Positions 40,474 through 54,899 are shown, numbered from the stretch's first letter. The stretch is 64,000 nucleotides of DNA from a virus (IMGVR_UViG_3300027983_002389); one strand, 5' to 3'. The notes: generated by a model from the sequence alone, not told the origin. Numbers and translations: made by a program.

Positions 40474-40545
40474 AGGGACGTGGTGCAAAGGCTAACATGG
40501 CAGTCTCCAAAACTGTTGATCTCGGTTCGAGTCCGAGCGTCCCTG
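40474..40545 (+). tRNA. tRNA-Trp(CCA)
   Basis: GCAGT-CTCCAAA-ACTGT, G73. Confidence 0.9.
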
Positions 40546-40567
40546 CTGATTGGTTCTCGACAGTCAT

Positions 40568-41571: not shown

Positions 41572-41648
41572 GGGTGTGATCGTCTAGGTTGGTCTAGGAC
41601 ACCCGCCGTTTGAGGCGGGAGACATGGGTTCAAATCCCATCACATCTT
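41572..41648 (+). tRNA. tRNA of undetermined isotype (8-nt loop or 6-bp stem)
   Basis: CCCGC-CGTTTGAG-GCGGG; Glu/Asp-type D arm. Confidence 0.6.
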
Positions 41649-41659
41649 CGCAACTTTGT

Positions 41660-42140: not shown

Positions 42141-42290
42141 TTATTGGATCAATTAGTGTAACGGCAGCACGCCTCCGTGGAGGGGGAAGAGTGGTTCGAT
42201 TCCAATACCAACAACTAAATGAGACAAATTAGTGTAACGGTAGCACGCCTCTCACCAAGGGGAAGATTGGTTCGATTCCAATACTCATTT
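42141..42290 (+). ncRNA. tandem pair of tRNA-like RNAs with 5-nt anticodon loops
   Basis: both have TAGTGTAACGG.AGCACG, CCTC(C/T)-N5-(G/A)GGGG, TGG-TTCGATT-CCA and a bulged acceptor. Confidence 0.6.
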
Positions 42291-42292
42291 AT

Positions 42293-42374
42293 GCCGGGTT
42301 CGCATAGCGGCGATTGCACAGGTTTTGTAAACCTGCGGAGTTATCCCTCGTGGGTTCGAGTCCCACACCCGGCT
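42293..42374 (+). tRNA. tRNA-Thr(TGT), long variable arm
   Basis: CAGGT-TTTGTAA-ACCTG; V arm GGA-GTTA-TCC. Confidence 0.8.
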
Positions 42375-42403
42375 CTGAACATTTAACCTTTTGGGGAAAT
42401 ACT

Positions 42404-43127
42404 ATGGTGCGTCTTTGGCTCGAAACTGTGCGGATTTAGACCAACGGGTCGGTTACACTTAGGTCATTATTTCTCGGTGATTCAACCGGGACAGGCTGGG
42501 TGTACTGTACTGGTGGCAAACTATCATGCACCGGAGGTAAATAATCTGGAAGTTTCCGTGAACGCCTTACGGCAATACGGTGTCCAGACCATAGTGATTC
42601 AGAAGGATGTGTTTAACGCTGAATTGTTTTTTCGATTATTGACGCTCGCAAAAATGGGTGATCTTGGTCGAATGACACAATTCAAGTCAACGGAAGAGGA
42701 CGATAGAACTGGTCAATTGCTGACTTATCCTGTTCTTATGGCGCATGATGTTGCGGGTTACTCCGAGGTCATTGTGGGTCTGGATCAGAAGCAGCATTTG
42801 GAATATGCCAGAAAGCTGTTGAAAAAATACAACAGTGTATATGGCACGACATATCCAATCCCGATAGCCAATATCGTGGTGGGACGTGTCAAAGATTTGC
42901 GTGATCCGACGAAGAAAATGTCGAAGTCATCGCCGCAGGGATGTTTATTCCTTGATGATACGGTGGATGATATTCAACAAAAGATTCGGAAGGCGACCGC
43001 AGATGAAGAGGGCCTGAATAACTTGAAGTTTTTGTATGGGGAGTTTGTAAGAGAAACGCCTCCAACAAGCAATCAAGAACTGAAAGAGAAACTGGCTAAT
43101 TCGATTGTTATGCGTCTAAGGTGTTAG
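42404..43127 (+). CDS. trpS: minimal tryptophanyl-tRNA synthetase (about 240 aa), start in a different frame (+1 frameshift)
   Basis: GFRPTGRLHLGH upstream of the called ORF, YPVLMAHD, VGLDQKQH, KMSKS; RBS+ATG at 42404 is out of frame. Confidence 0.85.
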
Positions 43128-43184
43128 TGGCAGCATACTTGGCTCTTAACCAAGATGGTTCCGGTTCAAGTCCGGGTGGACGCA
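43112..43184 (+). tRNA. tRNA-Lys(CTT)
   Basis: CTTGG-CTCTTAA-CCAAG; overlaps trpS stop. Confidence 0.85.
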
Positions 43185-43194
43185 CTTGATGAAT

Positions 43195-44268: not shown

Positions 44269-45075
44269 ATGGACCCAAAATATACTGTCGGGCAAAAGGT
44301 TCTTTTTGCCAATCAAGAAGCCATTATTCGCAAGTTTGAAGAAAATGACGGAGTAGTCAAGTATTACTGCGAAGTTGGTGGTGTTCCGCTGACCATGTGG
44401 ATTCCTGAAGATTCTTTGGATGTCGGAAACCCTTCTGGACCGCCATCTGTATTCTTCAATCGCAGAATGCCACATTTGATGGTCGTAGATAATTTCTACA
44501 AAGACCCCGATGATGTGCGAGCTTTTGCCTTGGAGCAAGACTTCAAGCCGAACTTGAACAACTATAAGGGAAAGAGAACCGAGGAACGATTCCTGTGGCC
44601 TTTCCTCAAAGAAGAGTTTGAACGACTATTGGGTCGTCCGATTGTTGACTGGTTGAACCAGCCTTGCAATGGCTGCTTCCAGATTACTGGTTTCGATGAT
44701 CCGTTAGTTTGGCACTCGGACTTGCAGAGTTACGCCGCTGCGATATATTTGACGCCAGATGCCCCGGTAACTGCTGGGACGAGCTTCTGGAAAGATAAGA
44801 CACACGGAAGTCGCCGTCCGCCAAATCACCCGCTTGAGTTCGACCGATTCGATTCAGATGAAGCACGAGCTTTAGCGGCCAGTGAGATTTACAGCGGATA
44901 CAATATCCTTCACCCGGATAATTGGGAATTGGTCGATAAATTTGGAGCCGTATACAATCGGCTTGCAATTTGGGATGCTCAAATGATCCACTCGGCAAGT
45001 TCCTATGAAGGCATGGTAAGTGGCGATCCTGATAAGGCTCGACTTGTCCAATTGTTTTTCTTTACCGTAAGGTAA
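44269..45075 (+). CDS. 2OG-Fe(II) oxygenase-like (DUF6445-type)
   Basis: VVDNFYKDPD.VR, WHSD, IYLTP, GTSF, YNRL, HSA, RLVQLFF. Confidence 0.8.
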   Translation: MDPKYTVGQKVLFANQEAIIRKFEENDGVVKYYCEVGGVPLTMWIPEDSLDVGNPSGPPSVFFNRRMPHLMVVDNFYKDPDDVRAFALEQDFKPNLNNYKGKRTEERFLWPFLKEEFERLLGRPIVDWLNQPCNGCFQITGFDDPLVWHSDLQSYAAAIYLTPDAPVTAGTSFWKDKTHGSRRPPNHPLEFDRFDSDEARALAASEIYSGYNILHPDNWELVDKFGAVYNRLAIWDAQMIHSASSYEGMVSGDPDKARLVQLFFFTVR

Positions 45076-45078
45076 TCA

Positions 45079-45357
45079 ATGTCTTTCCGGCTGAGTAAAA
45101 AAGTTTCTCTCGAAAAAGGCGACAGGATACGAGTATCCGGTGGTCCTTATTTTCTCACTCAAGCCGGAACAAAAATCAACATGGGCGAGCGAGGAGTCGG
45201 GACATTTGTGGGATCGGAAGAAAACGGCGAGGCGATATACGTCAAATTTGACCGCACGTCTGCCCCAAGATTTGTATACATTGGGCCTGAGCGTTTATCG
45301 GAATCAACCGGGACAACGCTCAGGCCACATAAAATCGTCAAACTACGAAAGAAGTAA
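45079..45357 (+). CDS. hypothetical protein
   Basis: ORF. Confidence 0.6.
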   Translation: MSFRLSKKVSLEKGDRIRVSGGPYFLTQAGTKINMGERGVGTFVGSEENGEAIYVKFDRTSAPRFVYIGPERLSESTGTTLRPHKIVKLRKK

Positions 45358-45601
45358 GACCTTTGCTACACCGAACATTGTTGGCGACTTGCGGGTTTGA
45401 TTTCCCTGGTCTCAGTGTTTTTTCGAGGACGCCGTGCTTCGTGAGAATACGAACGACCTGCATTAGATCAGCCGATAGACTGCCTGGATGCCGGTATCCG
45501 GTTTCGAGGATGAATCGCACAAGTTGAACGTGGTTCACACCTTCGGGATGAACGTACACGGCATTGATGACGAGTTGCCGAAGGGTTTCTCGGTTTTTCA
45601 T
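45338..45601 (-). CDS. hypothetical protein (possible winged helix)
   Basis: ORF with AAGGA RBS. Confidence 0.5.
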   Translation of the reverse strand: MKNRETLRQLVINAVYVHPEGVNHVQLVRFILETGYRHPGSLSADLMQVVRILTKHGVLEKTLRPGKSNPQVANNVRCSKGLTSFVV

Positions 45602-45718
45602 GGCACTGATCCTTGAATTGTTTATAATTTACTTTGCCGATAATGGAACCGGCTACAAGTGTTTTTCTTAACACCCAAAGATTAGTCAAGCAAAGTTTGT
45701 GCCAACGGGAGAAAAGAG

Positions 45719-46051
45719 ATGTGGTATGTTCTGGATGACCAAAATGAACCAATTCCTGCGGACACGTTGGTTGCTGATCGGTTCCTGGAAGACCAGGGTG
45801 TGCGACGAACTGTCGCATACGACGCCATGCTTGACGGCAGTTTGTTGTCCACGGTGTTCATGTGTTTAGATCACTGCATGGGTCGTTCGGACGGGCCGGT
45901 TTTGTTCGAGTCGATGTGGTTTGGTGGTCCTCATGACGGGCATCAGCGACGGTACAAAACTTGGACTGAAGCTGAAGAAGGTCATGCCGATATGTTGGCG
46001 GCATATGGGGAATATCTGACCTATATGGCAGATAAATTAGCGAAGATGTGA
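45719..46051 (+). CDS. hypothetical phage protein
   Basis: STVF..LDH....PVLFESM.FGG...RY.TW.EA..GH pattern. Confidence 0.65.
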   Translation: MWYVLDDQNEPIPADTLVADRFLEDQGVRRTVAYDAMLDGSLLSTVFMCLDHCMGRSDGPVLFESMWFGGPHDGHQRRYKTWTEAEEGHADMLAAYGEYLTYMADKLAKM

Positions 46052-46055
46052 TTAT

Positions 46056-46126
46056 GCGGCCATGATGTAGTGGTAGCCTGTTTGCTTGCCGAGCAAGAAG
46101 TGCGAGTTCGATTCTCGCTGGCCGCT
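46056..46126 (+). tRNA. tRNA-Gly(GCC)
   Basis: TTTGC-TTGCCGA-GCAAG, U73. Confidence 0.75.
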
Positions 46127-46168
46127 TTAATTTCCATATAACCTCCACTATATAACAGTGGAGGTTAT

Positions 46169-46576
46169 ATGGAAACAACAAATTCAAAAGGTGACTTAGC
46201 TGTGGCTAAGGTTCATTTGCTTTCTATTGAAAAAGGTTTTATTGTAAGTAAACCATTATCGGATTCTGCTCGATACGATTTAATTGTTGATGATGGGGCC
46301 TTGAAAAGAACGCAGATTAAATATGCCGATGGAAAAGGATCGCACGGATCACAGGGCGTTGTTCGAGTTGCTTTAGAAAAGAAGTACAAAGACAAAATTC
46401 TTTTTTATTCGGAAAAGGATATTGATTTGCTTTTGGTTTATATTCCTAAAATAGATCGAATTTGTGCATTCAAATCAGATATATTTGCAGGAAGAAAAAA
46501 TTTGTATATTAGATACGAACCTGCTAAGAACGGGCAAAAAAAAGGTTGTCTTAGTGCGTCTGATTATTTTTGGTAG
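46169..46576 (+). mobile_element. PD-(D/E)XK homing-type endonuclease
   Basis: KGDLA, RYDLIVD, QIKY, Y...DID; AT-rich. Confidence 0.8.
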
Positions 46577-46579
46577 TAT

Positions 46580-46651
46580 GCGACTATGGTGTAGAGGTTG
46601 TCACGCTTGCTTGCCAAGCAAGAGGATAGGGTTCGAGTCCCTGTAGTTGCT
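46580..46651 (+). tRNA. tRNA-Gly(GCC)
   Basis: CTTGC-TTGCCAA-GCAAG. Confidence 0.8.
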
Positions 46652-46710
46652 CTGAGGTTCTCTTGGTGTGAGGCCAGGGGCTAAGTAGAATGCGAGTTCA
46701 GCCTTTTCAT

Positions 46711-46781
46711 GGCCCATTCGTCTAATGGCAGGACGTAACCCTCTCACGGTTAAAACAGGAGTTCGATTCTCCTATGGGTCA
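46711..46781 (+). tRNA. tRNA-Glu(CTC)
   Basis: TAACC-CTCTCAC-GGTTA. Confidence 0.9.
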
Positions 46782-46790
46782 CTGGTATTT

Positions 46791-46914
46791 GCCGGGTTAG
46801 CTCAATGGTAGAGCGCCAAAAATACTCTCAGCAATATTTGGGCTTCGGCCATGCTCGTTGGGATTACATTCCATTCTAAGGAGGAGGTTGTTGGTCCGAA
46901 TCCAACACCCGGCA
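46791..46914 (+). ncRNA. tRNA-like RNA with about 65-nt anticodon-arm replacement
   Basis: GCCGGGT/ACCCGGC, GCTC-AATGGTA-GAGC, GTTGG/CCAAC. Confidence 0.7.
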
Positions 46915-46916
46915 CT

Positions 46917-47753
46917 ATGATTTGCGTATACCTAGTAAACGAAGAACCGGCGTATATTGGGATGTTGTCCCTTAGCCTTAAAATGCTGCGGCAGCACAAT
47001 CCAAGTGTGCCAGTTGTCGTTTACTATGTCCAAGATGGCAAACGAGACTCTCGAAGAATTCCACTGACAGAGATAACCAGAGCTTTGAATAAGTTGCCGA
47101 ACGATTATTTATCGTTCAGTAACTTGTGCGAAGAACTCAATGTCGAAGTTCGAGTTCGTAAGTCAAAGCAAGAAGAGGCATATTACTCTTTGCATCGCCT
47201 ATTGCTGCAAGAGATTGAAGAAGAGACAGTGCTTCTGTTAGATGGCGACACGTTCATATTTGGCAATATTGAGGGGTTCCCTCAGATGTATGCTGGATAC
47301 GATTTTGTGGCAACGCCGAATTCTTGGGGTATGGTCCATCCGGTTCCTGGTTTAGACCCCAACTTCAGATCGTTTAATTCTGGCGTCGTGCTGTGCCAGA
47401 ATGGTGTTTTCAAGCGATGGATGGATTCAATTGGCGATTATTGTCAAAGGTTATATGATGGTTGCCATCCACAGTCAGAGTGGTTGTGGAGCGTAAGTGC
47501 AGAATGTGCTGGAAGAGAAGAGTTGGCAGCGAGTTTGTTTGTTTTGGACAATGGCTTGAAGTATAGATACTTCGAGAATGAGCATGTGCAAATGGGGAGT
47601 TACGATAGTAACGCCCGCATATTGCACACACTAAGTCCAAATTGGCATTCATTATACAATGAATGCTTTAAGCCACAGCGTAAAAGGCTTTTCAAGCCAC
47701 GCTTAAAAAATGATGCAGATGCCGGTGGTCAAACAGATAATGATCTTGATTAG
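46917..47753 (+). CDS. glycosyltransferase (GT8-like)
   Basis: SL..LRQHNP, LLLDGDT (DxD), FNSGV. Confidence 0.75.
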   Translation: MICVYLVNEEPAYIGMLSLSLKMLRQHNPSVPVVVYYVQDGKRDSRRIPLTEITRALNKLPNDYLSFSNLCEELNVEVRVRKSKQEEAYYSLHRLLLQEIEEETVLLLDGDTFIFGNIEGFPQMYAGYDFVATPNSWGMVHPVPGLDPNFRSFNSGVVLCQNGVFKRWMDSIGDYCQRLYDGCHPQSEWLWSVSAECAGREELAASLFVLDNGLKYRYFENEHVQMGSYDSNARILHTLSPNWHSLYNECFKPQRKRLFKPRLKNDADAGGQTDNDLD

Positions 47754-47846
47754 CCACCAAAGGCCGATGGCAATACCGCCAATTCCTAATCCGAACAACC
47801 AAGTTTTGAATGATTTAAGTTTAGAAATGAACTTATCCTTGTCCAT
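47703..47846 (-). CDS. small membrane protein
   Basis: GGAGGT RBS, hydrophobic 47 aa. Confidence 0.6.
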   Translation of the reverse strand: MDKDKFISKLKSFKTWLFGLGIGGIAIGLWWLIKIIICLTTGICIIF

Positions 47847-48129
47847 ATGTACCTCCTTGAATACGATATACGATATAAGGTATATATGCAGGTGACTACT
47901 ATGAAAAACAAGAAGACCGCAAAGCAGTTGAAAAAGCAAGAAAAGCGTGAACATCGTGTAACAATAGCTAGCTGTCCATGCTAAGTGCGATTGTGGCTGT
48001 TGCACGGCGACGATGCGATTCAAAAACAAAGTCAAAAGCAGGGCTTGCTAATTCGGCAACAATAGTTGATGATGAAGGCGTCGTTCAAGAAATTTGCCTA
48101 CCATTGGCACACCTCAGAAAGTACACAGC

Positions 48130-48354
48130 ATGGATTTTCCAGCCCTCGTCAAAGCCGAATTAGAAAAAGCTCGTCGCAAGCATCCTGGCGAACAACGCAA
48201 CCTTCATGAAGGTTATGCGGTGATTCTTGAAGAAGTTGATGAGTTTTGGGATGTGGTGAAAAGCCAAAAACCCGATACGGCTCATGCGTTAGAGGAACTG
48301 GTACAGGTTGCTGCTATGTGTCAGCGAACTGCGGAAGACGTGTTGGGTCAATAA
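48130..48354 (+). CDS. MazG-like NTP pyrophosphohydrolase
   Basis: ILEEVDEF...EELVQVAA. Confidence 0.65.
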   Translation: MDFPALVKAELEKARRKHPGEQRNLHEGYAVILEEVDEFWDVVKSQKPDTAHALEELVQVAAMCQRTAEDVLGQ

Positions 48355-48355
48355 T

Positions 48356-48430
48356 CAGGCTGTAGCTCAGTTTGGCTAGAGCGCTTGGCTGGGGGCCAAG
48401 AAGTCGCAGGTTCAAATCCTGTCAGCCTGA
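48356..48430 (+). tRNA. tRNA-Pro(GGG)
   Basis: CTTGG-CTGGGGG-CCAAG. Confidence 0.9.
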
Positions 48431-48444
48431 CTGATACATAGAAT

Positions 48445-48515
48445 GCCTCATTGGTCTAATGGTATGATACTTCTTTCGTAAAGAAGTTGCAGGGGTTCGA
48501 TTCCCTTATGAGGCT
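48445..48515 (+). tRNA. tRNA-Thr(CGT)
   Basis: CTTCT-TTCGTAA-AGAAG. Confidence 0.85.
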
Positions 48516-48519
48516 CTTT

Positions 48520-48593
48520 ATCGCTATGGTGCTGGGTACACAGTTGTCTCTCATAAGGACGACGTGGTGAGTTCGATTCTCACCTTAGCGACT
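48520..48593 (+). tRNA. atypical tRNA with CAT anticodon (Met/Ile2)
   Basis: GTTGTCT-CTCATAA-GGACGAC extended stem. Confidence 0.6.
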
Positions 48594-48645
48594 CTATTTG
48601 TGTGAGGAAATGTGTCTTTCATTGACACCGACACTACATAGTTTC

Positions 48646-49569
48646 ATGTTAAAACATGCGACATATGAAAAAGTCAAACATCTAATTGGCACTCGACCCG
48701 GCATCATTGTAACCAACGCCTGCAATTTATCATGCGGTGGTTGTTATGCCCAATGTGGAAAATTCTCAAAGGAACAAATGTGGTTTATTTCGATGGATCA
48801 ATTCATCGAAAATCTTGAGTATATCATTGAATACATGTACCGTGGCAAAGTGATTTTGTTTAACGGTGAATCAGTCGATGTTAATTCTCAATCCAATGGC
48901 ATTGATTTGATTGGAGGAGAGCCAACTATTCATCCTGAATGGGGTAAAATTTGGGAACTCATAACGACAAAATATCAAAAAATAAAATTCTTGGTTTCGA
49001 CAAACGGCAGGATAAGTTTCCCACCAGCCAGCAATGTGGATTTTCATCTAGCATATAAAACCAAAACTGTGGGACTTGATTTCGTCTCAACCTTGGTGGC
49101 TCCAATAGATATTATTGGTAATCCAGATCGAAATTATTATTGGCAAACTGCTCAAACAGATTGTGGCATTTGGAAGTCGTTGGGGTGTGTTAATCCCATT
49201 TACAAAAATTCGATTTCTATTTGTTCAGTTGCTTCTTCCTGGAGCGATCTGTTGGATTTGGATTTATGCTGGCCGCTCACACCAGGAAAAAACCCATTTT
49301 CTGAATTAACAGACAAAGACATTAGAGCTATGGCCGAGCAGGTTTGCTATCGTTGTGGTTGGTCAAAAAAAATGGACTTACCTGAGAATCAGCAGTCACA
49401 GTTATATGATTTGGTGAGCGAAACCAATCTTGAAGTTTTGATTAAAAATCCTAGAAACAAACCGTACAAAGTGATTTCCCGAGAAGGAGATCAGTTGAAA
49501 CTTAGTGAGTTGAAAAATTCAAAAAACGACTTAGTGTCTTTGACGTACAAGGGAAGTGCGTTGTTGTGA
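48646..49569 (+). CDS. radical SAM protein
   Basis: CNLSCGGC, GGEPT, STNG. Confidence 0.85.
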   Translation: MLKHATYEKVKHLIGTRPGIIVTNACNLSCGGCYAQCGKFSKEQMWFISMDQFIENLEYIIEYMYRGKVILFNGESVDVNSQSNGIDLIGGEPTIHPEWGKIWELITTKYQKIKFLVSTNGRISFPPASNVDFHLAYKTKTVGLDFVSTLVAPIDIIGNPDRNYYWQTAQTDCGIWKSLGCVNPIYKNSISICSVASSWSDLLDLDLCWPLTPGKNPFSELTDKDIRAMAEQVCYRCGWSKKMDLPENQQSQLYDLVSETNLEVLIKNPRNKPYKVISREGDQLKLSELKNSKNDLVSLTYKGSALL

Positions 49570-49602
49570 AATTTTGCTGGAGTCAATTTTCTACATAATT
49601 GC

Positions 49603-50187
49603 ATGTTAAAGTGTCAACCCATAGATTTATTTTGGCAGGACTTGGTTGATTGGCTCGTTTTTTTTGGGCATGATCGCAATCAGGTTGTATGCGGCTCAAT
49701 GCCAAAAGAGACGATTCTGCGTCTTTCTCAAATATTGACTGGTAATGGATTGCAGATTGGTGGTTTCGTTGGTGTGGCTCATTGTTGCTTGGCAAGGATG
49801 TTGTCCTACAAAGGCACAATTTGCACAGTGGACCCTAACTTAACTCATCGGGATATTAAAAATCCACTCCTTGTGCTTTTCCAACTTGTCCAACATTTTA
49901 ATCTGTCAAGCAATTCAATGTTGGTCTGTGGACATGCTAATGAGCAGATGAGAATATTCGCTGCGATGGGTATGAAATTTGATTTCATCATATTGGATGG
50001 AAATCATGATTACTCTTTTGTCGCAAATGAAATCAAGCTGGCCGATCCGATTCTCAAATCGGGCGGCTATTTGGTTTTAGATGACATTGACTATTGGGAT
50101 GGTCCTAAAAAGGCTATTGACGAAACCTTGCCGGGTTATGTCCGTATCGAACTGGACTCCAGAGCAGGACTTTTGCAGAAGAAATGA
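49603..50187 (+). CDS. class I SAM methyltransferase (Methyltransf_24-like)
   Basis: FDFIILDGNH, LKSGGYLVLDD. Confidence 0.8.
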   Translation: MLKCQPIDLFWQDLVDWLVFFGHDRNQVVCGSMPKETILRLSQILTGNGLQIGGFVGVAHCCLARMLSYKGTICTVDPNLTHRDIKNPLLVLFQLVQHFNLSSNSMLVCGHANEQMRIFAAMGMKFDFIILDGNHDYSFVANEIKLADPILKSGGYLVLDDIDYWDGPKKAIDETLPGYVRIELDSRAGLLQKK

Positions 50188-50222
50188 TACGCTCGTAAAA
50201 ACCACAAGTTATTTCTTGTGAC

Positions 50223-50251
50223 TTTACAACAGAAATAACCTGTGGTAGAAT
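50223..50251 (+). promoter_or_regulatory. promoter TTTACA-N17-TAGAAT
   Basis: motif match. Confidence 0.7.
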
Positions 50252-50365
50252 GGTTGGTCGGTAAAAATCACGTCTTTCTTGAAAAGTTCAATTTCCTTAA
50301 CTGAAATGTGATTGTGAATCCTAAATATCTTGGACTGCTTCGGTGGTCCAAGTGTTTAGGAATAT

Positions 50366-50440
50366 CGGGGTGTAGCTCAGTTTGGCTAGAGCGCTTGCTT
50401 TGGGAGCAAGAAGTCGCAGGTTCGAGTCCTGTCACCCCGA
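50366..50440 (+). tRNA. tRNA-Pro(TGG)
   Basis: CTTGC-TTTGGGA-GCAAG. Confidence 0.92.
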
Positions 50441-50545
50441 CTTCGCCTAAGACAACCAGTGCTGGTCTTGGATGACGTAAAATGCTTAAATTCTGCGGTG
50501 TGACTGACAAGGAAAACCAACGATTCTGGTCGAGGCGATCTCATT

Positions 50546-50812
50546 ATGAAATTCAAACGTCGCAAGACTGACAAGGGATTTCTCTACATATTCTGGTGTC
50601 CAGGTTGTCGAGCAAACCATACATTTGATGTTCGGGACGGCGAATGGGAGTTTGATGGTGATTGGGAAAATCCAACTTTCTCGCCATCATTGAATCTCTT
50701 GCCACAAGGCGGTAGATGTCACCTATTTGTTAGGGAGGGCATTATTGAATTCTTGGGCGATTGCAATCATCATCTTAGAAGTCAGCAAGTCCCGATGGTT
50801 GAAATAGAATAA
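50546..50812 (+). CDS. DUF6527-like Zn-binding protein
   Basis: CPGC...H, W.FDG...PTFSPS, CH.FV..G.I. Confidence 0.7.
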   Translation: MKFKRRKTDKGFLYIFWCPGCRANHTFDVRDGEWEFDGDWENPTFSPSLNLLPQGGRCHLFVREGIIEFLGDCNHHLRSQQVPMVEIE

Positions 50813-50950
50813 CCCGTCGTTCCTCTCCCGGAAACGGTGACGAACATAAGGGGCGGGTATATAAAGGGAATAAAGTCATTTACTTTGAGTTTGGAAATTC
50901 CGTAGCTCATATTTTTCTCATTTTCTTGAGATAAGTGAGCTACATATGGT

Positions 50951-51445
50951 ATGGAAAAACATGCTATTGAAGAACTTATTCAAATCAACCTTTCGCAAAG
51001 GGAGATCGCAGTCAAATTGGAATGTTCCCAATCAACTGTTAAATACTGGCTCAAACAGTTTGGGTTAAAAACAAGACAAGCCCAATACAACGAAAAATCG
51101 CAATTTGAGTGTGAGTGTGGCGAGAAAAATCCACATAAGTTTACAAACAGAGGCAAAGGGCGTGTTTGTAAAACTGTTTGTAAAAGTTGTCACTATAAAC
51201 AAAGAATTGAAAGATACCGTAGCAAGAAGCTAAAGGCTATCGAATATAAGGGTGGAAAATGCAAAAAATGTGGATACGATAAGTGTCCTGGTTCTTTGCA
51301 GTTCCATCACAGAAATCCATCTGAAAAAGACCCTAATTGGAAGCATGTTCGTAGTTGGAGTTTTTCTAAGACCAAAAAAGAACTTGATAAATGCGATTTG
51401 TTATGCGCTAATTGTCATGGTGAAGTTCATTGGGACGTGGTGTAA
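50951..51445 (+). mobile_element. HTH + HNH homing endonuclease
   Basis: SQREIA..L..SQSTV HTH; GGKCKKCGY...LQFHH, LCANCH. Confidence 0.88.
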
Positions 51446-51503
51446 TTGGGAACACACAACAATGGCATTCAAGAGGTCAGGGGTTCAACTCCCCTCGGCT
51501 CCA
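51432..51503 (+). pseudogene. chimeric tRNA-Ala(GGC)
   Basis: Ala-type 3' half (CGGCTCCA) does not pair with 5' half; ATGGCAT loop. Confidence 0.6.
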
Positions 51504-51507
51504 CTAC

Positions 51508-51700
51508 CTCTGGTTGTTTACGACCGGAAGGCTGAATCAACAGTGTATCGGTCGTATTACGACTGATGGGGACTTCGGATCAGACCGGCTTTGGAATAAG
51601 CTAACTCGCAGGGCGTAGCTTCGTGCAACATTCGTCCCGGTAAAACCGTTCTTCGGATGCCCATATCGGAGGCTGTATTGGTTGTCAGTCACCCACTCTG
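51508..51700 (+). ncRNA. putative structured RNA
   Basis: GGCTGA..CAGT pairs with GCTG..TCAGTC; ATCGGTCGT/ACGACTGAT hairpin. Confidence 0.4.
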
Positions 51701-51728
51701 GAGAATCAACAAATTGGTCCGACTTTAT

Positions 51729-51799
51729 ACCCGATTGGTGAAACGGTATCACACCACTATGACACGGTGATGTCAGAGGTTCGACTCCTCTATCGGGTA
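51729..51799 (+). tRNA. tRNA-Val(GAC)
   Basis: ATGACAC loop; ACCCGAT/ATCGGGT. Confidence 0.85.
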
Positions 51800-51804
51800 C
51801 TATC

Positions 51805-52143
51805 TTGAACACGACATGGCTACTCACAATTCCAGCATTCCTAGTATTCTGTGCCGGTGCTTATTGCACTTACAATAAAGGCATCAGAGAGTCCTGGATA
51901 TATTTTCCCGTCTACGTTGGCTTGTCGCTCATCTCTTCATTTATTTGGGTTTTCGTCGCTCGCCGACTTGATACCACAAATAATCTTCTCTTGTTCTCTT
52001 TGGTTTGGGACGTATTGATGGTGCTGGCGTATTACGCTGGTCCTCTCGTCTTCAAAGGTGAGAACCTAAGTTGGCAGGCATATGCAGCCGCCGCTCTCAC
52101 TGTAACCGGCATATGTTGGTTCAAAATCGCCATTGGCGATTAG
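51805..52143 (+). CDS. small 4-TM membrane protein (DMT/SMR-like)
   Basis: four hydrophobic segments, FKGE.LS motif. Confidence 0.6.
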   Translation: MNTTWLLTIPAFLVFCAGAYCTYNKGIRESWIYFPVYVGLSLISSFIWVFVARRLDTTNNLLLFSLVWDVLMVLAYYAGPLVFKGENLSWQAYAAAALTVTGICWFKIAIGD

Positions 52144-52425
52144 TTTGTGTTTTCACCGTTCCAGAAAACCTACGGAAATCTGGTTCAAGCAACTAACCAC
52201 CTTCACCCTGGTAAGGAAGTCTATGTCCGGAATTTGCAGTAGACATATTGAAAAAGTAATTGGTTGCCCGTTGTGTGATAGCACACCTTCCGACGTACTG
52301 ACTAATTTTGGTTGGCTCGTCCATCCACGATGACACCTATACCGGCTACAAGTGTTGGGAAGGTTATTTTGAAAACTTTGAACTTTGTGAAGTTCAAAAA
52401 ATGACAGTGCAAGGATAGGTTAAAA

Positions 52426-53169
52426 ATGGCAGTCAATTGTGGACCAGTGGGCAGCTTCATAATTCGCATTTGCCCTCCATTGAAGGGTAAAAAGTTTTGC
52501 TTGCAAATTCGCAATCATCGAGTGGGCAGCAATACTTTTCAATGCCACAAAGAGGTCGTTGACAATAAGTGGCAAGGCGAATGTGTCATCTGCGATCAAT
52601 GCAACAAGTTCTACAAAGAACATTTTGACAATGACGGTTTAGGCTTTCTTGCTGCTCCGCATGATAAGCCTCGGTTCTTTTCAGGCAGTGTCGAAGATTT
52701 TAAGCGTGAACTCAATTCGATCAAGCCTAGCGAACGCTATTACTTCAACAGCATTGTGCGAGGCGAAGAAGAACGTGGTGTTCTAAATTGGTCCTGTGGT
52801 AAAACCATATACGCCAAAATCCTGGAAGGCATTGTCGGAAACGAAAGTAATCCAAATGTGGTTGCTCTAGGCGATATAACCGACCCTAAGAAGGGATTTG
52901 ATCTGCATGTCAGAAGGACTATCAAAAATACCGATAATGGACCATGGCCAGATTATTCGAGTTCGCAGTTCCTTCCATCAACACCAATGGGTAAACCCAA
53001 GCAGGTTAAATTGTGGCTGGCTCAATTGCGTGACTTGACCGCTCTGCGTATTCTTTCTTCTAAAGAAGATATGATAGACGCTATGGAAGATGTTTTTGGG
53101 CATCTTGGTCCTGTGAACTCAAAGCAAAAATATCGTTCCATTTCTGATCCATTTGTTCCTTCTTGGTAA
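52426..53169 (+). CDS. T4 gp32-like single-stranded DNA-binding protein
   Basis: H...CVIC, ERYYFN.IVR, GKTIY.KI, DP.KGFD, PDYSSSQF. Confidence 0.7.
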   Translation: MAVNCGPVGSFIIRICPPLKGKKFCLQIRNHRVGSNTFQCHKEVVDNKWQGECVICDQCNKFYKEHFDNDGLGFLAAPHDKPRFFSGSVEDFKRELNSIKPSERYYFNSIVRGEEERGVLNWSCGKTIYAKILEGIVGNESNPNVVALGDITDPKKGFDLHVRRTIKNTDNGPWPDYSSSQFLPSTPMGKPKQVKLWLAQLRDLTALRILSSKEDMIDAMEDVFGHLGPVNSKQKYRSISDPFVPSW

Positions 53170-53179
53170 TATATAAGAT

Positions 53180-53590
53180 ATGCTCCCTAGCAAGCTGAAA
53201 CTGTATTTTGACGGATCATGCGAGCCAAAGAACCCCGGTGGAATAGCCGGGTATGGATGGCGTCTAGTTGACATGGATGGCAACGAGGTCGATACAGACC
53301 GTGGTGAGGTCTGCCGGGGTCCGGGAGCAACAAATAACATTGCTGAATGGGCGGCGGTAACGAATGGACTGCGTTACCTTAAAGAAAAAGAATGGCAAGG
53401 CACACTGGAAATATTCGGTGATTCCCAACTTGTCATTCGTCAATTGCTTGGGGAATATAAGGTCCGCAAGGACACCTTAATCCCATATCACAAAGAATGT
53501 GTGTCTCTTTTGGAAAACCTTCAGTGGAAGGCAATTTGGATTCCCAGAGAACAAAATGAGGAATGTGATCGACTTTCTAAGCACGGCTGA
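53180..53590 (+). CDS. rnhA: ribonuclease HI
   Basis: YFDGSC..NPG, TNNIAE, GDSQLV, WIPREQN..CD. Confidence 0.92.
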   Translation: MLPSKLKLYFDGSCEPKNPGGIAGYGWRLVDMDGNEVDTDRGEVCRGPGATNNIAEWAAVTNGLRYLKEKEWQGTLEIFGDSQLVIRQLLGEYKVRKDTLIPYHKECVSLLENLQWKAIWIPREQNEECDRLSKHG

Positions 53591-53651
53591 TTGATCGAGG
53601 TTTAATTCTCCCATATAATTGGATATTCCAGTTTCAAATAGGGAGATCAAC

Positions 53652-54899
53652 ATGCAGGTCAATTATCGTGTTTCGGCTTCGGGCTATCCTGTTTACCACG
53701 TTCAAATGAAAGATGCCTCCGTTTGTGAGGCACATATCGTTTCTAATTGCGGGTCTTCCCATGAAGACCCTGATTCTTGGGGCGTGGCACACTTCCTGGA
53801 GCATATGTGCTTCCAAGGAACTCCTACCAAGAATAAACACCAAGTAAGTCGTGAACAGTCGTTAGTTGGTTCGTACAACGCATATACGAATCAATTCAAT
53901 ACTGTCTATCACTTTGACTCACTCAACGAAGACTTCGAGAAGGGCTTTGGACTTCTTAAAGAGGCCGTCTTTGATTCTTGTTATCCTGAAAAGGAATTTG
54001 AGAAAGAAAAGAGCGTAATCATCGAGGAGTGGAGGATGTATGACAATTATCCCTCGGAACACTTCTCTGACTACATTCTTGAAAAATGCTACGGTGCTGC
54101 TGAAGGACACCCGATCATTGGCACGGAAGAGTCCATCCAGTGCATGAACCCTGAAAAGTTGCATCGGTTCAGGAACAAGTGGTATGGCAAAAACAATATC
54201 TTTGTTGTTATTGTCGGGAATCTGGACTTCGAGAAGGTGATGGAAGTTGTCGATAAGACGCTCCCGCCAGCACCAGATGTTGAAACCAGTCCTATTTGTT
54301 TGAATGATTTCTTTGCAGACCAGCCGAAGTATAAATTCGAGACTGATCGCTTTGAACAAGCTGCGTTTGGTCTAGTCAGCAAGTGGCCATCGCCAAAAGA
54401 GGTTTATAAGAATCGCTATATTGCGAGCTTCTTTTCCTCTGCTTTGTCCAAGTATATGTATGAGTATATTCGAGATGACCTGGGTTTGTGTTATGGAGTA
54501 TGGAACAGTCGTTTCCGTCACTTCGATAATTCTTACTTGATGATCTCGATGCTCACCAATAATGGATATTTGGAAAAGGCTGAAACCGAGTTGGAGAATT
54601 TGTTCTCCAAAATCAAATCGGAAGGCTTCCCAAATGAAGTCTTTGAGATCGCCAAGAAGAAACTGACCTACAATCAAGTCAAGACGCTGGACAACGTAAG
54701 TGGCATTGCCGGATCGGTTGTGAATAGCGTGCTTGGTTCCGCTGACAAAGACTGGTTTCTGTCAGAAGGACAAAAGGGCATGGACCCTGCTTGGTTGAAG
54801 TCGGTTGCTGCTCAACTGAGCCAGGACGACCTCAAGGAATTTGCCAACAATTGGCTTGGTGGTTTCACCAAGTTTGCGATGGTTTCCACCAAGAAGTAA
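53652..54899 (+). CDS. M16 (insulinase) family peptidase
   Basis: GVAHFLEHMCFQGT, NAYT, EK.VIIEE, IRDDLGLCY. Confidence 0.9.
   Translation: MQVNYRVSASGYPVYHVQMKDASVCEAHIVSNCGSSHEDPDSWGVAHFLEHMCFQGTPTKNKHQVSREQSLVGSYNAYTNQFNTVYHFDSLNEDFEKGFGLLKEAVFDSCYPEKEFEKEKSVIIEEWRMYDNYPSEHFSDYILEKCYGAAEGHPIIGTEESIQCMNPEKLHRFRNKWYGKNNIFVVIVGNLDFEKVMEVVDKTLPPAPDVETSPICLNDFFADQPKYKFETDRFEQAAFGLVSKWPSPKEVYKNRYIASFFSSALSKYMYEYIRDDLGLCYGVWNSRFRHFDNSYLMISMLTNNGYLEKAETELENLFSKIKSEGFPNEVFEIAKKKLTYNQVKTLDNVSGIAGSVVNSVLGSADKDWFLSEGQKGMDPAWLKSVAAQLSQDDLKEFANNWLGGFTKFAMVSTKK

What the first reader, a model, noticed from the sequence alone, without database searches (positions are those of the whole stretch)
42391..43127. 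Minimal phage TrpRS apparently gated by a prfB-like +1 frameshift at a Trp codon (CUU-UGG)
Seen: the TrpRS frame contains GFRPTGRLHLGH upstream of the called GTG, but has no ATG back to the stop at 42384. The RBS-ATG (GGGGA...ATG 42404) reads ATG GTG CGT CTT TGG and stops after 11 codons. A +1 slip from CTT (42413) to TTT (42414) gives MVRL-GSKLCGFRPTGRLHLGH..., a normal-length TrpRS N-terminus. A GGTG lies 3 nt before CTT. Established: prfB shifts +1 at CUU-UGA with an internal SD 3 nt upstream when the A site is slow to fill. Inference: a hungry UGG codon would trigger the shift, so the synthetase is made only when Trp-tRNA is scarce. That would be a negative-feedback sensor, and tRNA-Trp(CCA) is in the same array.
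Basis: partly seen in the sequence, partly recalled or inferred. Interest (0 to 1): 0.92.

Follow-up and report, generated by a model that had tools for sequence, protein, structure and literature searches.

The report
Trp-codon frameshift switch in phage TrpRS
A compact tryptophanyl-tRNA synthetase gene of a family of huge phages can be translated only if the ribosome slips one base forward at a Leu-Trp codon pair (CUU-UGG), a release-factor-2-like switch that probably lets the ribosome set synthetase output by how slowly it can read tryptophan codons.

Summary
Contigs from four studies show no indel at the site. Twelve lineages (52-97% protein identity) keep the same layout: an SD-ATG one base out of frame, then GGTG-NNN-CTT-TGG, with the ATG frame stopping 0-6 codons later.

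In most lineages the synthetase frame has no usable start. In one lineage a stop codon lies inside the motif, which leaves only four codons (ACT CTT TGG CTC) where the shift can occur. The N-terminus, including the HIGH motif, is under strong purifying selection in the synthetase frame, so it must be translated. CUU_U is the only slippery site. The layout copies prfB (SD-like element, 3 nt, CTTT, C after the A-site codon) but has UGG where prfB has UGA.

New support for Trp sensing: the core region (from the ANYH motif onward) of 121 family members contains no tryptophan in 25,009 residues. The productive path therefore needs no Trp-tRNA.

Regulation by Trp-tRNA supply remains an inference and needs a reporter test. 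I found no published description. Earlier unchecked notes of this scan report analogous Trp-codon frameshift leaders before trpS in CPR bacteria and archaea. I class this as a new variant of a known kind, with high interest.

The parts
42384..42386 (+). TAA stop that closes the TrpRS frame upstream. It lies 9 nt after tRNA-Thr(TGT), which spans 42293-42375.
42393..42397 (+). Shine-Dalgarno element (GGGGA; GGAG in close relatives) serving the out-of-frame ATG.
   Evidence: In 10 of 12 lineages an SD-like purine run lies 7-8 nt before the ATG of this frame.
42404..42439 (+). Zero-frame leader ORF of 11 codons (MVRLWLETVRI) ending at TAG 42437-42439. It is the fate of ribosomes that do not shift.
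   Evidence: In relatives the same frame stops 0-6 codons after TGG.
42406..42409 (+). GGTG, complementary to CACC of the anti-SD, with a 3-nt spacer before CTT. It is the candidate internal SD-like stimulator.
   Evidence: present at -7..-4 in 11 of 12 lineages, and L108 has GAGG at the same place. The spacing matches prfB (PMC12421855).
42413..42416 (+). Slippery CTT_T. The P-site tRNA-Leu would re-pair from CUU to UUU.
   Evidence: Invariant in 12 lineages. It is the only slippery site in the 4-codon shift window left open in L109.
42416..42418 (+). TGG, the zero-frame A-site Trp codon at the shift site. It is the only Trp codon met on the way to the enzyme.
   Evidence: Invariant in 12 lineages. 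The enzyme frame has no Trp codon.
42417..43127 (+). +1-frame coding part of the compact TrpRS, from GGC to TAG 43125-43127. The predicted product is MVRL joined to GSKLCGF... (about 240 aa).
   Evidence: PF00579 E=7e-30 and TIGR00233 E=1e-30. AF2 pLDDT 93.7, and the best structural matches are bacterial TrpRS with TM 0.82-0.84.
42456..42467 (+). HIGH motif (HLGH). It lies upstream of the first canonical in-frame start, GTG 42477.
   Evidence: 816 synonymous against 122 non-synonymous codon differences over the 21 N-terminal codons.
42915..42929 (+). KMSKS motif.
40474..40546 (+). Phage tRNA-Trp(CCA) with G73, the presumed substrate, in the same + strand tRNA array.
   Evidence: A tRNA-Trp lies within about 3 kb of trpS in 7 of the relatives' short loci (L001, L002, L007, L102, L106, L107, L109) as well as in the window.
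43112..43185 (+). tRNA-Lys(CTT). Its first 16 nt overlap the last codons and the stop of trpS.
   Evidence: The same overlap occurs in L106 and L109.

Best explanation
The gene encodes a compact bacterial-type tryptophanyl-tRNA synthetase. It is expressed through a programmed +1 ribosomal frameshift.

Proposed path:
- Ribosomes start at the SD-served ATG 42404 and read Met-Val-Arg-Leu.
- With tRNA-Leu on CUU in the P site and UGG in the A site, some ribosomes slip one base, from CUU to UUU.
- These ribosomes continue at GGC 42417 in the synthetase frame and produce MVRL-GSKLCGF....
- Ribosomes that decode UGG stay in the leader frame and terminate after a few codons.

The cassette copies prfB: an SD-like GGUG, a 3-nt spacer, CUUU, and usually C after the A-site codon. 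The difference is that the sense codon UGG replaces UGA.

What is shown: the arrangement is conserved; the N-terminus is translated in the synthetase frame; no other entry into that frame exists in most lineages; and CUU_U is the only slippery site inside the permitted window.

What is inferred (about 0.55 on its own): the shift competes with the arrival of Trp-tRNA(Trp). Less charged tRNA-Trp would then give more synthetase, and more synthetase would shut the shift down. That is a homeostat for the phage's own tRNA-Trp/TrpRS pair. The enzyme frame contains no Trp codon, so it can be made when Trp-tRNA is lacking.
For: (1) Twelve lineages at 52-97% identity have an SD plus ATG in the -1 frame relative to TrpRS. 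CTTTGG is invariant, and G at -7 and -4 is invariant.

(2) TrpRS-frame stops lie just before the motif in L007, L008, L099, L100 and L105. In L109 the stop lies inside it (TGA at -5..-3). Together with the zero-frame TAA at +9, that leaves only ACT CTT TGG CTC for the shift.

(3) Codons from LCGF through HIGH show 816 synonymous against 122 non-synonymous differences in the TrpRS frame. The other two frames show 70/919 and 71/913.

(4) The candidate alternative starts are not conserved. The Leu codon is CTG, TTG, CTT, CTA, CTC or ATT. The window's GTG 42477 is GTA or GTC in the others.

(5) Of 120 homologous proteins, gene callers started 74 in or after HIGH and 21 at the Leu codon. Only 12 have an ordinary start. 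All 11 non-ordinary members for which DNA was seen carry the cassette, and the one ordinary member seen (L107) lacks it.

(6) A clade of 111 rows (SH-aLRT 97) holds nearly all the cassette-type rows. Ordinary-start members are mostly basal.

(7) There is no indel in contigs from four studies.

(8) The layout equals the prfB logo of SD-like, 3 nt, CTTT, stop, C (PMC12421855; PMC3711429).

(9) For sensing: the core region of 121 members holds zero Trp in 25,009 residues. The single W in the family is in P0069, an ordinary-start member. For comparison, distant TrpRS have 0.57% W and the window's ORFs have 1.9%.

(10) Slow A-site codons are known to drive +1 shifts: Ty1 CUU-AGG-C and hungry codons (PMC5009743), and Trp-codon frameshifting under Trp depletion in human cells (PMC13751296).

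(11) The Trp-binding Met and Asp, and the HIGH and KMSKS motifs, are invariant.
Against: There is no expression, protein or reporter data. No RNA run was available.

GGUG gives only four base pairs with the anti-SD, and in a different register from prfB's AGGGGG, so its stimulatory role is uncertain.

Shifting on a sense codon without a strong stimulator may be only a few per cent efficient.

Two lineages have an in-frame ATG that could bypass the shift. In L003/L004 it lies 8 codons upstream of the motif, without an SD. In L108 it lies 4 nt after the leader ATG. The switch is therefore not obligatory everywhere.

The Trp-free composition is also seen in basal ordinary-start members. It predates or is independent of the cassette and does not by itself prove sensing.

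The host is unknown, so the properties of its tRNA-Leu and tRNA-Trp pools are unknown.
Confidence: 0.72

Rival explanations
1. The +1 frameshift is real but constitutive. It acts as a fixed throttle that keeps the synthetase at a low level. UGG is used only because it is a generally slow, single-tRNA codon, and there is no feedback from Trp-tRNA charging.
For: The SD-like element is weak. There is no conserved RNA structure. There is no experimental evidence of regulation. Ordinary-start relatives exist (L107), so the enzyme tolerates unregulated expression.
Against: A weak ribosome-binding site would give a throttle far more cheaply. Of the 16 UNN codons compatible with the slip, the one kept in all 12 lineages is the enzyme's own codon. 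The enzyme frame is entirely Trp-free. Any shift that competes with A-site decoding must by kinetics respond to the supply of the cognate ternary complex (hungry-codon literature, PMC5009743).
Confidence: 0.2
2. No frameshift occurs. Translation starts inside the TrpRS frame at a non-canonical or upstream codon (ATA 42399, CTG 42426, GTG 42477, or an upstream ATG as in L003), and the out-of-frame ATG is a decoy or small upstream ORF.
For: L003/L004 and L108 do have an in-frame ATG. Several relatives have TTG at the Leu codon, and a soil variant of the window has C42426T, which gives TTG.
Against: L007 has no ATG, GTG, TTG, CTG or ATN in frame between the TGA and GFRPTG. L109 has a TGA inside the motif. 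The Leu codon is CTT, CTA or CTC in five lineages, and position 42477 is GTA or GTC elsewhere. The SD sits at the right distance for the out-of-frame ATG in 10 of 12 lineages. The invariance of CTTTGG would be left unexplained.
Confidence: 0.04
3. The frame change comes from four-base decoding (CUUU or UGGC) by a special phage tRNA rather than from P-site slippage.
For: The arrays encode tRNA-like genes with irregular anticodon loops. ARAGORN marks them '???' at window 41572-41649 and in L001, L002 and L109. Reading UGGC as one codon would also land in the TrpRS frame.
Against: None of the odd loops seen is complementary to CUUU, UUGG or UGGC. The base after UGG varies (C 9, T 2, G 1). The prfB-like SD spacing and CUUU fit slippage.
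Confidence: 0.03
4. The gene is a pseudogene or carries an assembly indel.
For: One base separates the ATG frame from the enzyme frame.
Against: The same offset occurs in 12 divergent lineages and in contigs from four studies. Purifying selection is strong along the whole enzyme frame. The fold is confident and complete.
Confidence: 0.01

Closest known systems
prfB (release factor 2) autoregulatory +1 programmed frameshift, CUU_UGA_C with an internal SD 3 nt upstream
   Same: Both have the same slippery CUU_U, an anti-SD-complementary element with a 3-nt spacer, and usually C after the A-site codon. In both, the zero frame ends early and the full product needs the shift. In both, the gene product is the factor that speeds up reading of the A-site codon, which is the logic of negative feedback.
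   Different: The A-site codon is a sense codon (UGG), read by Trp-tRNA rather than by the protein itself, so feedback would be indirect through charging. The SD-like element is GGUG or GAGG rather than AGGGGG. The site is at codons 4-6 rather than about codon 25. The gene is phage-borne and unrelated to prfB.
Yeast Ty1 +1 frameshift (CUU_AGG_C) and Gallant's 'hungry codon' frameshifting
   Same: Both involve P-site tRNA-Leu slippage on CUU, driven by a slowly decoded sense codon in the A site. Neither needs an RNA structure. The frequency is set by the supply of one aminoacyl-tRNA.
   Different: Ty1 exploits a constitutively rare tRNA to fix a Gag:Pol ratio. Here the limiting tRNA species is the substrate of the encoded enzyme, which closes a feedback loop. 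This system is bacterial and has an SD-like element.
T-box riboswitch leaders of trpS and other aaRS genes in Firmicutes
   Same: Both give the same physiological logic: synthetase expression rises when charged cognate tRNA is scarce.
   Different: A T-box senses uncharged tRNA by RNA-RNA pairing and acts on transcription or initiation. Here there is no leader RNA structure, and the translating ribosome would be the sensor.
Antizyme (OAZ) +1 frameshift
   Same: It is also a sensor-type +1 shift that sets the level of a regulator of the sensed quantity.
   Different: It senses polyamines, uses UCC_UGA with a pseudoknot or upstream elements, and is eukaryotic.
Bacterial TrpRS (for example Geobacillus stearothermophilus 1i6k/1m83; TIGR00233)
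   Same: It shares the Rossmann catalytic core, HIGH, KMSKS and the Trp-binding Met and Asp. Structural TM is 0.82-0.84 over the model.
   Different: The phage enzyme is about 240 aa instead of about 330. The C-terminal helical (anticodon-binding) domain is reduced to three helices. It scores below the TIGR00233 cut-off (107 against 176.75). It contains no tryptophan.

Membership tests
prfB-type +1 programmed frameshift cassette | Slippery CUU_U with Leu codon in the P site | tested here: met
   CTTT is invariant in 12 lineages. It is the only slippery site in the shift window of L109.
prfB-type +1 programmed frameshift cassette | Internal Shine-Dalgarno-like element 3 nt upstream of CUU | tested here: inconclusive
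   GGTG (11 of 12) or GAGG (L108) sits at -7..-4 with a 3-nt spacer. It makes only 4 bp with the anti-SD and is weaker than AGGGGG. Its function is untested.
prfB-type +1 programmed frameshift cassette | A-site codon is the in-frame stop UGA read by the gene's own product (RF2) | tested here: not met
   The A-site codon is UGG in all 12 lineages. This is therefore not a member of the prfB family, although it works like it.
prfB-type +1 programmed frameshift cassette | Zero frame terminates early and the full-length product requires the +1 frame | tested here: met
   The leader frame stops 0-6 codons after TGG. HIGH through KMSKS lie in the +1 frame.
prfB-type +1 programmed frameshift cassette | Shift frequency falls as product activity rises (autoregulation) | not testable with these tools
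   This is inferred from UGG invariance and the Trp-free enzyme frame.
Hungry-codon +1 frameshift (Ty1-like) | Slowly decoded sense codon in the A site next to a slippery P-site codon, with no RNA structure needed | tested here: inconclusive
   The sequence layout is met, and no conserved structure is present. Slow decoding of UGG in the unknown host is not testable here.
Bacterial tryptophanyl-tRNA synthetase (class Ic; PF00579, TIGR00233) | HIGH and KMSKS signature motifs in a Rossmann fold | tested here: met
   HLGH lies at 42456-42467 and KMSKS at 42915-42929. PF00579 scores 104.8 bits against a cut-off of 21.1. AF2 plus Foldseek matches TrpRS structures.
Bacterial tryptophanyl-tRNA synthetase (class Ic; PF00579, TIGR00233) | Trp-specific pocket residues (Met129 and Asp132 of the G. 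stearothermophilus enzyme, from my own knowledge) and GxDQ | tested here: met
   M and D of LMAHD, and DQ of G(L/E)DQ, are invariant columns. They align to LMAAD and GEDQ of 3fi0.
Bacterial tryptophanyl-tRNA synthetase (class Ic; PF00579, TIGR00233) | Whole-protein score above the equivalog cut-off, with a full C-terminal anticodon-binding domain | tested here: not met
   TIGR00233 scores 107.1 bits against a cut-off of 176.75, and the match covers profile positions 6-222 of 328. The PDB profile match ends at chain residue 227 of 328.
Bacterial tryptophanyl-tRNA synthetase (class Ic; PF00579, TIGR00233) | Charges tRNA-Trp with tryptophan | not testable with these tools
   The only support is circumstantial. 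A tRNA-Trp(CCA) with G73 lies in the same array.
Leader-peptide attenuation (trpL / TnaC type) | A separate leader ORF, with the downstream gene having its own start codon | tested here: not met
   Most lineages have no start codon in the enzyme frame. No alternative helices are conserved.

The most novel reading that the evidence does not exclude
The cassette is a ribosome-based aminoacyl-tRNA gauge. A single UGG placed after a slippery CUU lets the elongating ribosome measure charged tRNA-Trp and set synthesis of a Trp-free TrpRS accordingly. Analogous leaders are noted by this scan in CPR bacteria and archaea. If those notes hold, this would be a recurrent, convergently evolved and so far undescribed way of autoregulating aminoacyl-tRNA synthetases. 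It would be the sense-codon counterpart of prfB.
Probability: 0.5. Interest if true: 0.92.

Novelty: new variant of a known kind. Interest (0 to 1): 0.88.

Why it matters
It would be the first synthetase gene found to be controlled by programmed frameshifting at its own cognate codon. That extends the prfB principle, in which the product speeds decoding of the codon that gates its own synthesis, from termination to aminoacylation.

It is directly testable with a 60-nt reporter. The cassette could also serve as a compact genetic sensor of the charging of a chosen tRNA.

It affects annotation. About 80% of this family's gene calls are wrongly truncated: 74 of 120 start in or after the HIGH motif and 21 start at the Leu codon. 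The catalytic HIGH motif is therefore missing from 74 of the 120 database entries.

It adds to the picture of how huge phages manage the translation apparatus that they carry, namely tRNA arrays plus a compact synthetase.

Tried and rejected
- Megablast of the locus against phage records gave no match.
- The metagenome-contig scan returned only distant, ordinary TrpRS genes at 48% identity or less, so it added no family members.
- One contig look-up returned no DNA (P0030).
- No whole genome is held for this window, so other synthetases and tRNA-Leu could not be surveyed.
- No RNA holder was listed among the sequencing runs, so expression and RNA-level slippage could not be examined. A T3 run is in any case too short for transcriptional slippage (my knowledge).
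- RNAalifold found no conserved structure around the site: 4 weak pairs at -3.3 kcal/mol.
- Alternative genetic codes showed no sign. Code 11 gives a dense + strand gene array, and the upstream stop is TAA.
- The compact class II synthetase-like gene next to trpS in L103 has an ordinary start, so the cassette did not generalise in the one case available.
- The TrpRS genes of the published huge phages LR756501 and LR756502 have ordinary in-frame ATG starts.
- The careful maximum-likelihood tree did not finish in time, so the quick tree was used.
- Seven completed literature searches found no description of a frameshifted synthetase gene (one further query was rejected for syntax). Reading the 2016 recoding review, the GeneTack paper and Mukai et al. 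2017 found none either.

Full report
**The sequence**

The window carries a + strand array of 40 tRNA genes. A 741-nt open frame (42387-43127) sits between tRNA-Thr(TGT) at 42293-42375 and tRNA-Lys(CTT) at 43112-43185. It matches class I W/Y synthetases (PF00579, E=7e-30) and trpS (TIGR00233, E=1e-30 but below the cut-off, profile positions 6-222 of 328).

The frame opens after TAA 42384. It has no ATG, GTG or TTG until GTG 42477, which lies after the HIGH motif. GGGGA at 42393 serves ATG 42404 in the frame one base behind. That frame reads ATG GTG CGT CTT TGG and stops at TAG 42437.

**Not an artefact**

Contigs from four runs in four studies lie on the site without any indel: freshwater at word depth 341, estuary, soil and glacier. 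The last two carry 3-13 substitutions, so they are different strains. The soil strain has C42426T.

**Relatives**

IMG/VR holds two near-identical loci (L001, L002) and three diverged lineages (L003/L004, L007, L008) on contigs of 23-511 kb. A protein search found a large family of about 200-285 aa proteins on contigs of up to 673 kb.

Of the 120 best cluster representatives:
- 74 are called from a start in or after the HIGH motif;
- 21 are called from the Leu codon of (K)LCGF;
- 13 run through the motif and read W-C-x-F-G there;
- 12 have an ordinary Met-x(2-4)-CGF start.

I fetched DNA for eleven members. Together with the IMG/VR loci, this gives 12 independent cassette lineages at 52-97% identity, plus one ordinary-start member, L107.

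All twelve show the following:
- an SD-like run (in 10 of the 12, 7-8 nt before an ATG in the -1 frame relative to TrpRS);
- GTG, one variable codon, then CTT TGG;
- a leader-frame stop 0-6 codons later, often TGG CTC TAA.

CTTTGG is invariant, and G at -7 and at -4 is invariant. GGTG occupies -7..-4 in eleven lineages, and L108 has GAGG there. In L105 the ATG directly before GTG is ACG and the start has moved two codons upstream, yet GGTG is kept. GGTG is therefore more than part of a start codon.

The pattern GGTGNNNCTTTGG occurs once in the window, against 0.21 expected. Among 112 loci it occurs only at this position in family members.

**Why a frameshift is required**

- *The N-terminus is translated.* Over the 21 codons from LCGF through HIGH to Pro, pairs of lineages differ by 816 synonymous and 122 non-synonymous codon changes in the TrpRS frame. 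The other two frames give 70/919 and 71/913.
- *There is no conserved entry into that frame.* The frame is closed by a stop one or two codons before the motif in L007, L008, L099, L100 and L105. In L109 a TGA lies inside the motif (K W stop L F G). The Leu codon that some callers use as a start is CTG, TTG, CTT, CTA, CTC or ATT. The window's GTG 42477 is GTA or GTC elsewhere. In L106 the called GTG start lies inside the SD.
- *The shift window is narrow.* In L109 it is bounded by the TrpRS-frame TGA (-5..-3) and the leader-frame TAA (+9). Only ACT CTT TGG CTC remains, and CUU_U is the only site there where a P-site tRNA can re-pair in the +1 frame. It is the same slip as in prfB.
- *Other routes are unlikely.* No conserved RNA structure accompanies the site. 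Nothing suggests an alternative genetic code.

**Comparison with prfB**

The prfB logo is an SD-like AGGGGG, three nucleotides, CTTT, the rest of the stop codon, then C (PMC12421855; PMC3711429). The phage cassette is GGTG or GAGG, three nucleotides, CTTT, GG, then C in 9 of 12 lineages. The difference is one base: UGA becomes UGG.

The gene is a TrpRS, so the codon that holds the ribosome at the slippery site is the codon whose decoding depends on the gene product. The slip fixes the first base of the A-site codon as U, and 16 codons would be compatible. The same one is kept in all twelve lineages. The Gly that its last two bases encode in the +1 frame is not needed by the enzyme, because ordinary-start relatives lack it.

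**A second line of evidence for sensing**

From the ANYH motif onward, the 121 family members contain no tryptophan in 25,009 residues. The only W anywhere in the mature region of the family is in P0069, an ordinary-start member. Distant TrpRS genes fetched in the same session have 0.57% W, and only 7 of 57 have none. Long ORFs of the window have 1.9% W.

A ribosome that shifts therefore never has to read a Trp codon to finish the enzyme. That is what one expects of a protein needed when Trp-tRNA is short. A caveat applies: basal ordinary-start members are also Trp-free, so this trait may predate the cassette.

**Evolution**

A quick ML tree (the careful search did not finish) places nearly all the cassette-type rows in one clade of 111 (SH-aLRT 97). 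Eight ordinary-start members lie outside it and four lie inside, and the four are best read as losses. Relatives at 35-48% identity have ordinary in-frame ATG starts, as do the TrpRS genes of the published 642-735 kb phages. The cassette thus arose once in this family and has been kept through deep divergence.

**The protein**

AlphaFold2 on a 42-sequence alignment gives pLDDT 93.7. Foldseek's best matches are bacterial TrpRS structures, with TM 0.82-0.84 on the model and about 0.6 on the targets. A family profile aligns to residues 5-227 of the 328-aa G. stearothermophilus enzyme.

HIGH, KMSKS, GxDQ and the Met and Asp of the indole pocket are invariant. The C-terminal helical domain is cut down to three helices. 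A tRNA-Trp(CCA) with G73 lies 1.9 kb upstream. A tRNA-Trp also lies within about 3 kb of trpS in seven of the relatives' short loci.

**What remains inference**

Untested points are that shifting actually occurs, how efficient it is, whether GGUG stimulates it, and whether its frequency follows Trp-tRNA supply. Experimental precedent exists. Slow sense codons drive +1 shifts at CUU in Ty1 and at hungry codons in E. coli (PMC5009743). Trp depletion induces frameshifting at Trp codons in human cells (PMC13751296). L003/L004 and L108 have in-frame ATGs that may allow shift-independent expression.

**Novelty**

Seven completed full-text searches and three targeted readings found no report of a synthetase gene expressed by a frameshift at its cognate codon.

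Earlier unchecked notes of this scan describe analogous Trp-codon +1 frameshift leaders before trpS in CPR bacteria and in DPANN and other archaea. I did not test those. If they hold, the phage family is a further, independent instance of the same principle. With twelve lineages and a four-codon shift window, it is a well-constrained one.

Noticed in passing
window 43112-43127; L106 2222-2236; L109 2187-2202: The last codons and the stop codon of trpS lie inside the 5' part of the downstream tRNA-Lys(CTT) gene, an overlap of 15-16 nt, in at least three lineages. RNase P processing of that tRNA would cut the mRNA before its stop codon.
   Followed up: partly
window 41572-41649; L001 1822-1896; L002 2272-2346 and 2444-2516; L109 285-356: These are tRNA genes with irregular anticodon loops, which ARAGORN marks '???' with two-letter anticodons. 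The window copy folds with a 6-bp stem and the 6-nt loop GUUUGA. Rfam tRNA scores 35.9 bits. None is complementary to the shift site.
   Followed up: partly
window 42141-42290: Two tandem tRNA-like units lie just upstream of tRNA-Thr and trpS. ARAGORN does not call them, and Rfam tRNA gives only 26.1 bits for 42223-42290. Their 5-nt loops are GUGGA and CACCA. Contigs of other runs show the repeated unit as loose ends.
   Followed up: no
L102 2463-2624: Two tRNA-Trp(CCA) genes lie in tandem 340 nt downstream of trpS. One is 84 nt long, which is unusual for tRNA-Trp.
   Followed up: no
L103 2422-3147: A very short (241 aa) class II synthetase-like gene (PF00587) lies 280 nt downstream of trpS in a 614-kb phage contig. 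It has an ordinary ATG start, contains several Trp residues, and has no frameshift cassette.
   Followed up: partly
family-wide: Public gene calls for this family are mostly wrong at the 5' end. Of 120, 74 start in or after the HIGH motif and 21 start at an internal Leu codon. Two are labelled tyrosyl-tRNA synthetase by their source.
   Followed up: yes
window 44269-54899: Genes interspersed in the tRNA array include DUF6445, a PD-(D/E)XK nuclease, a radical SAM protein, a methyltransferase, a gp32-like ssDNA-binding protein and an M16 peptidase.
   Followed up: no
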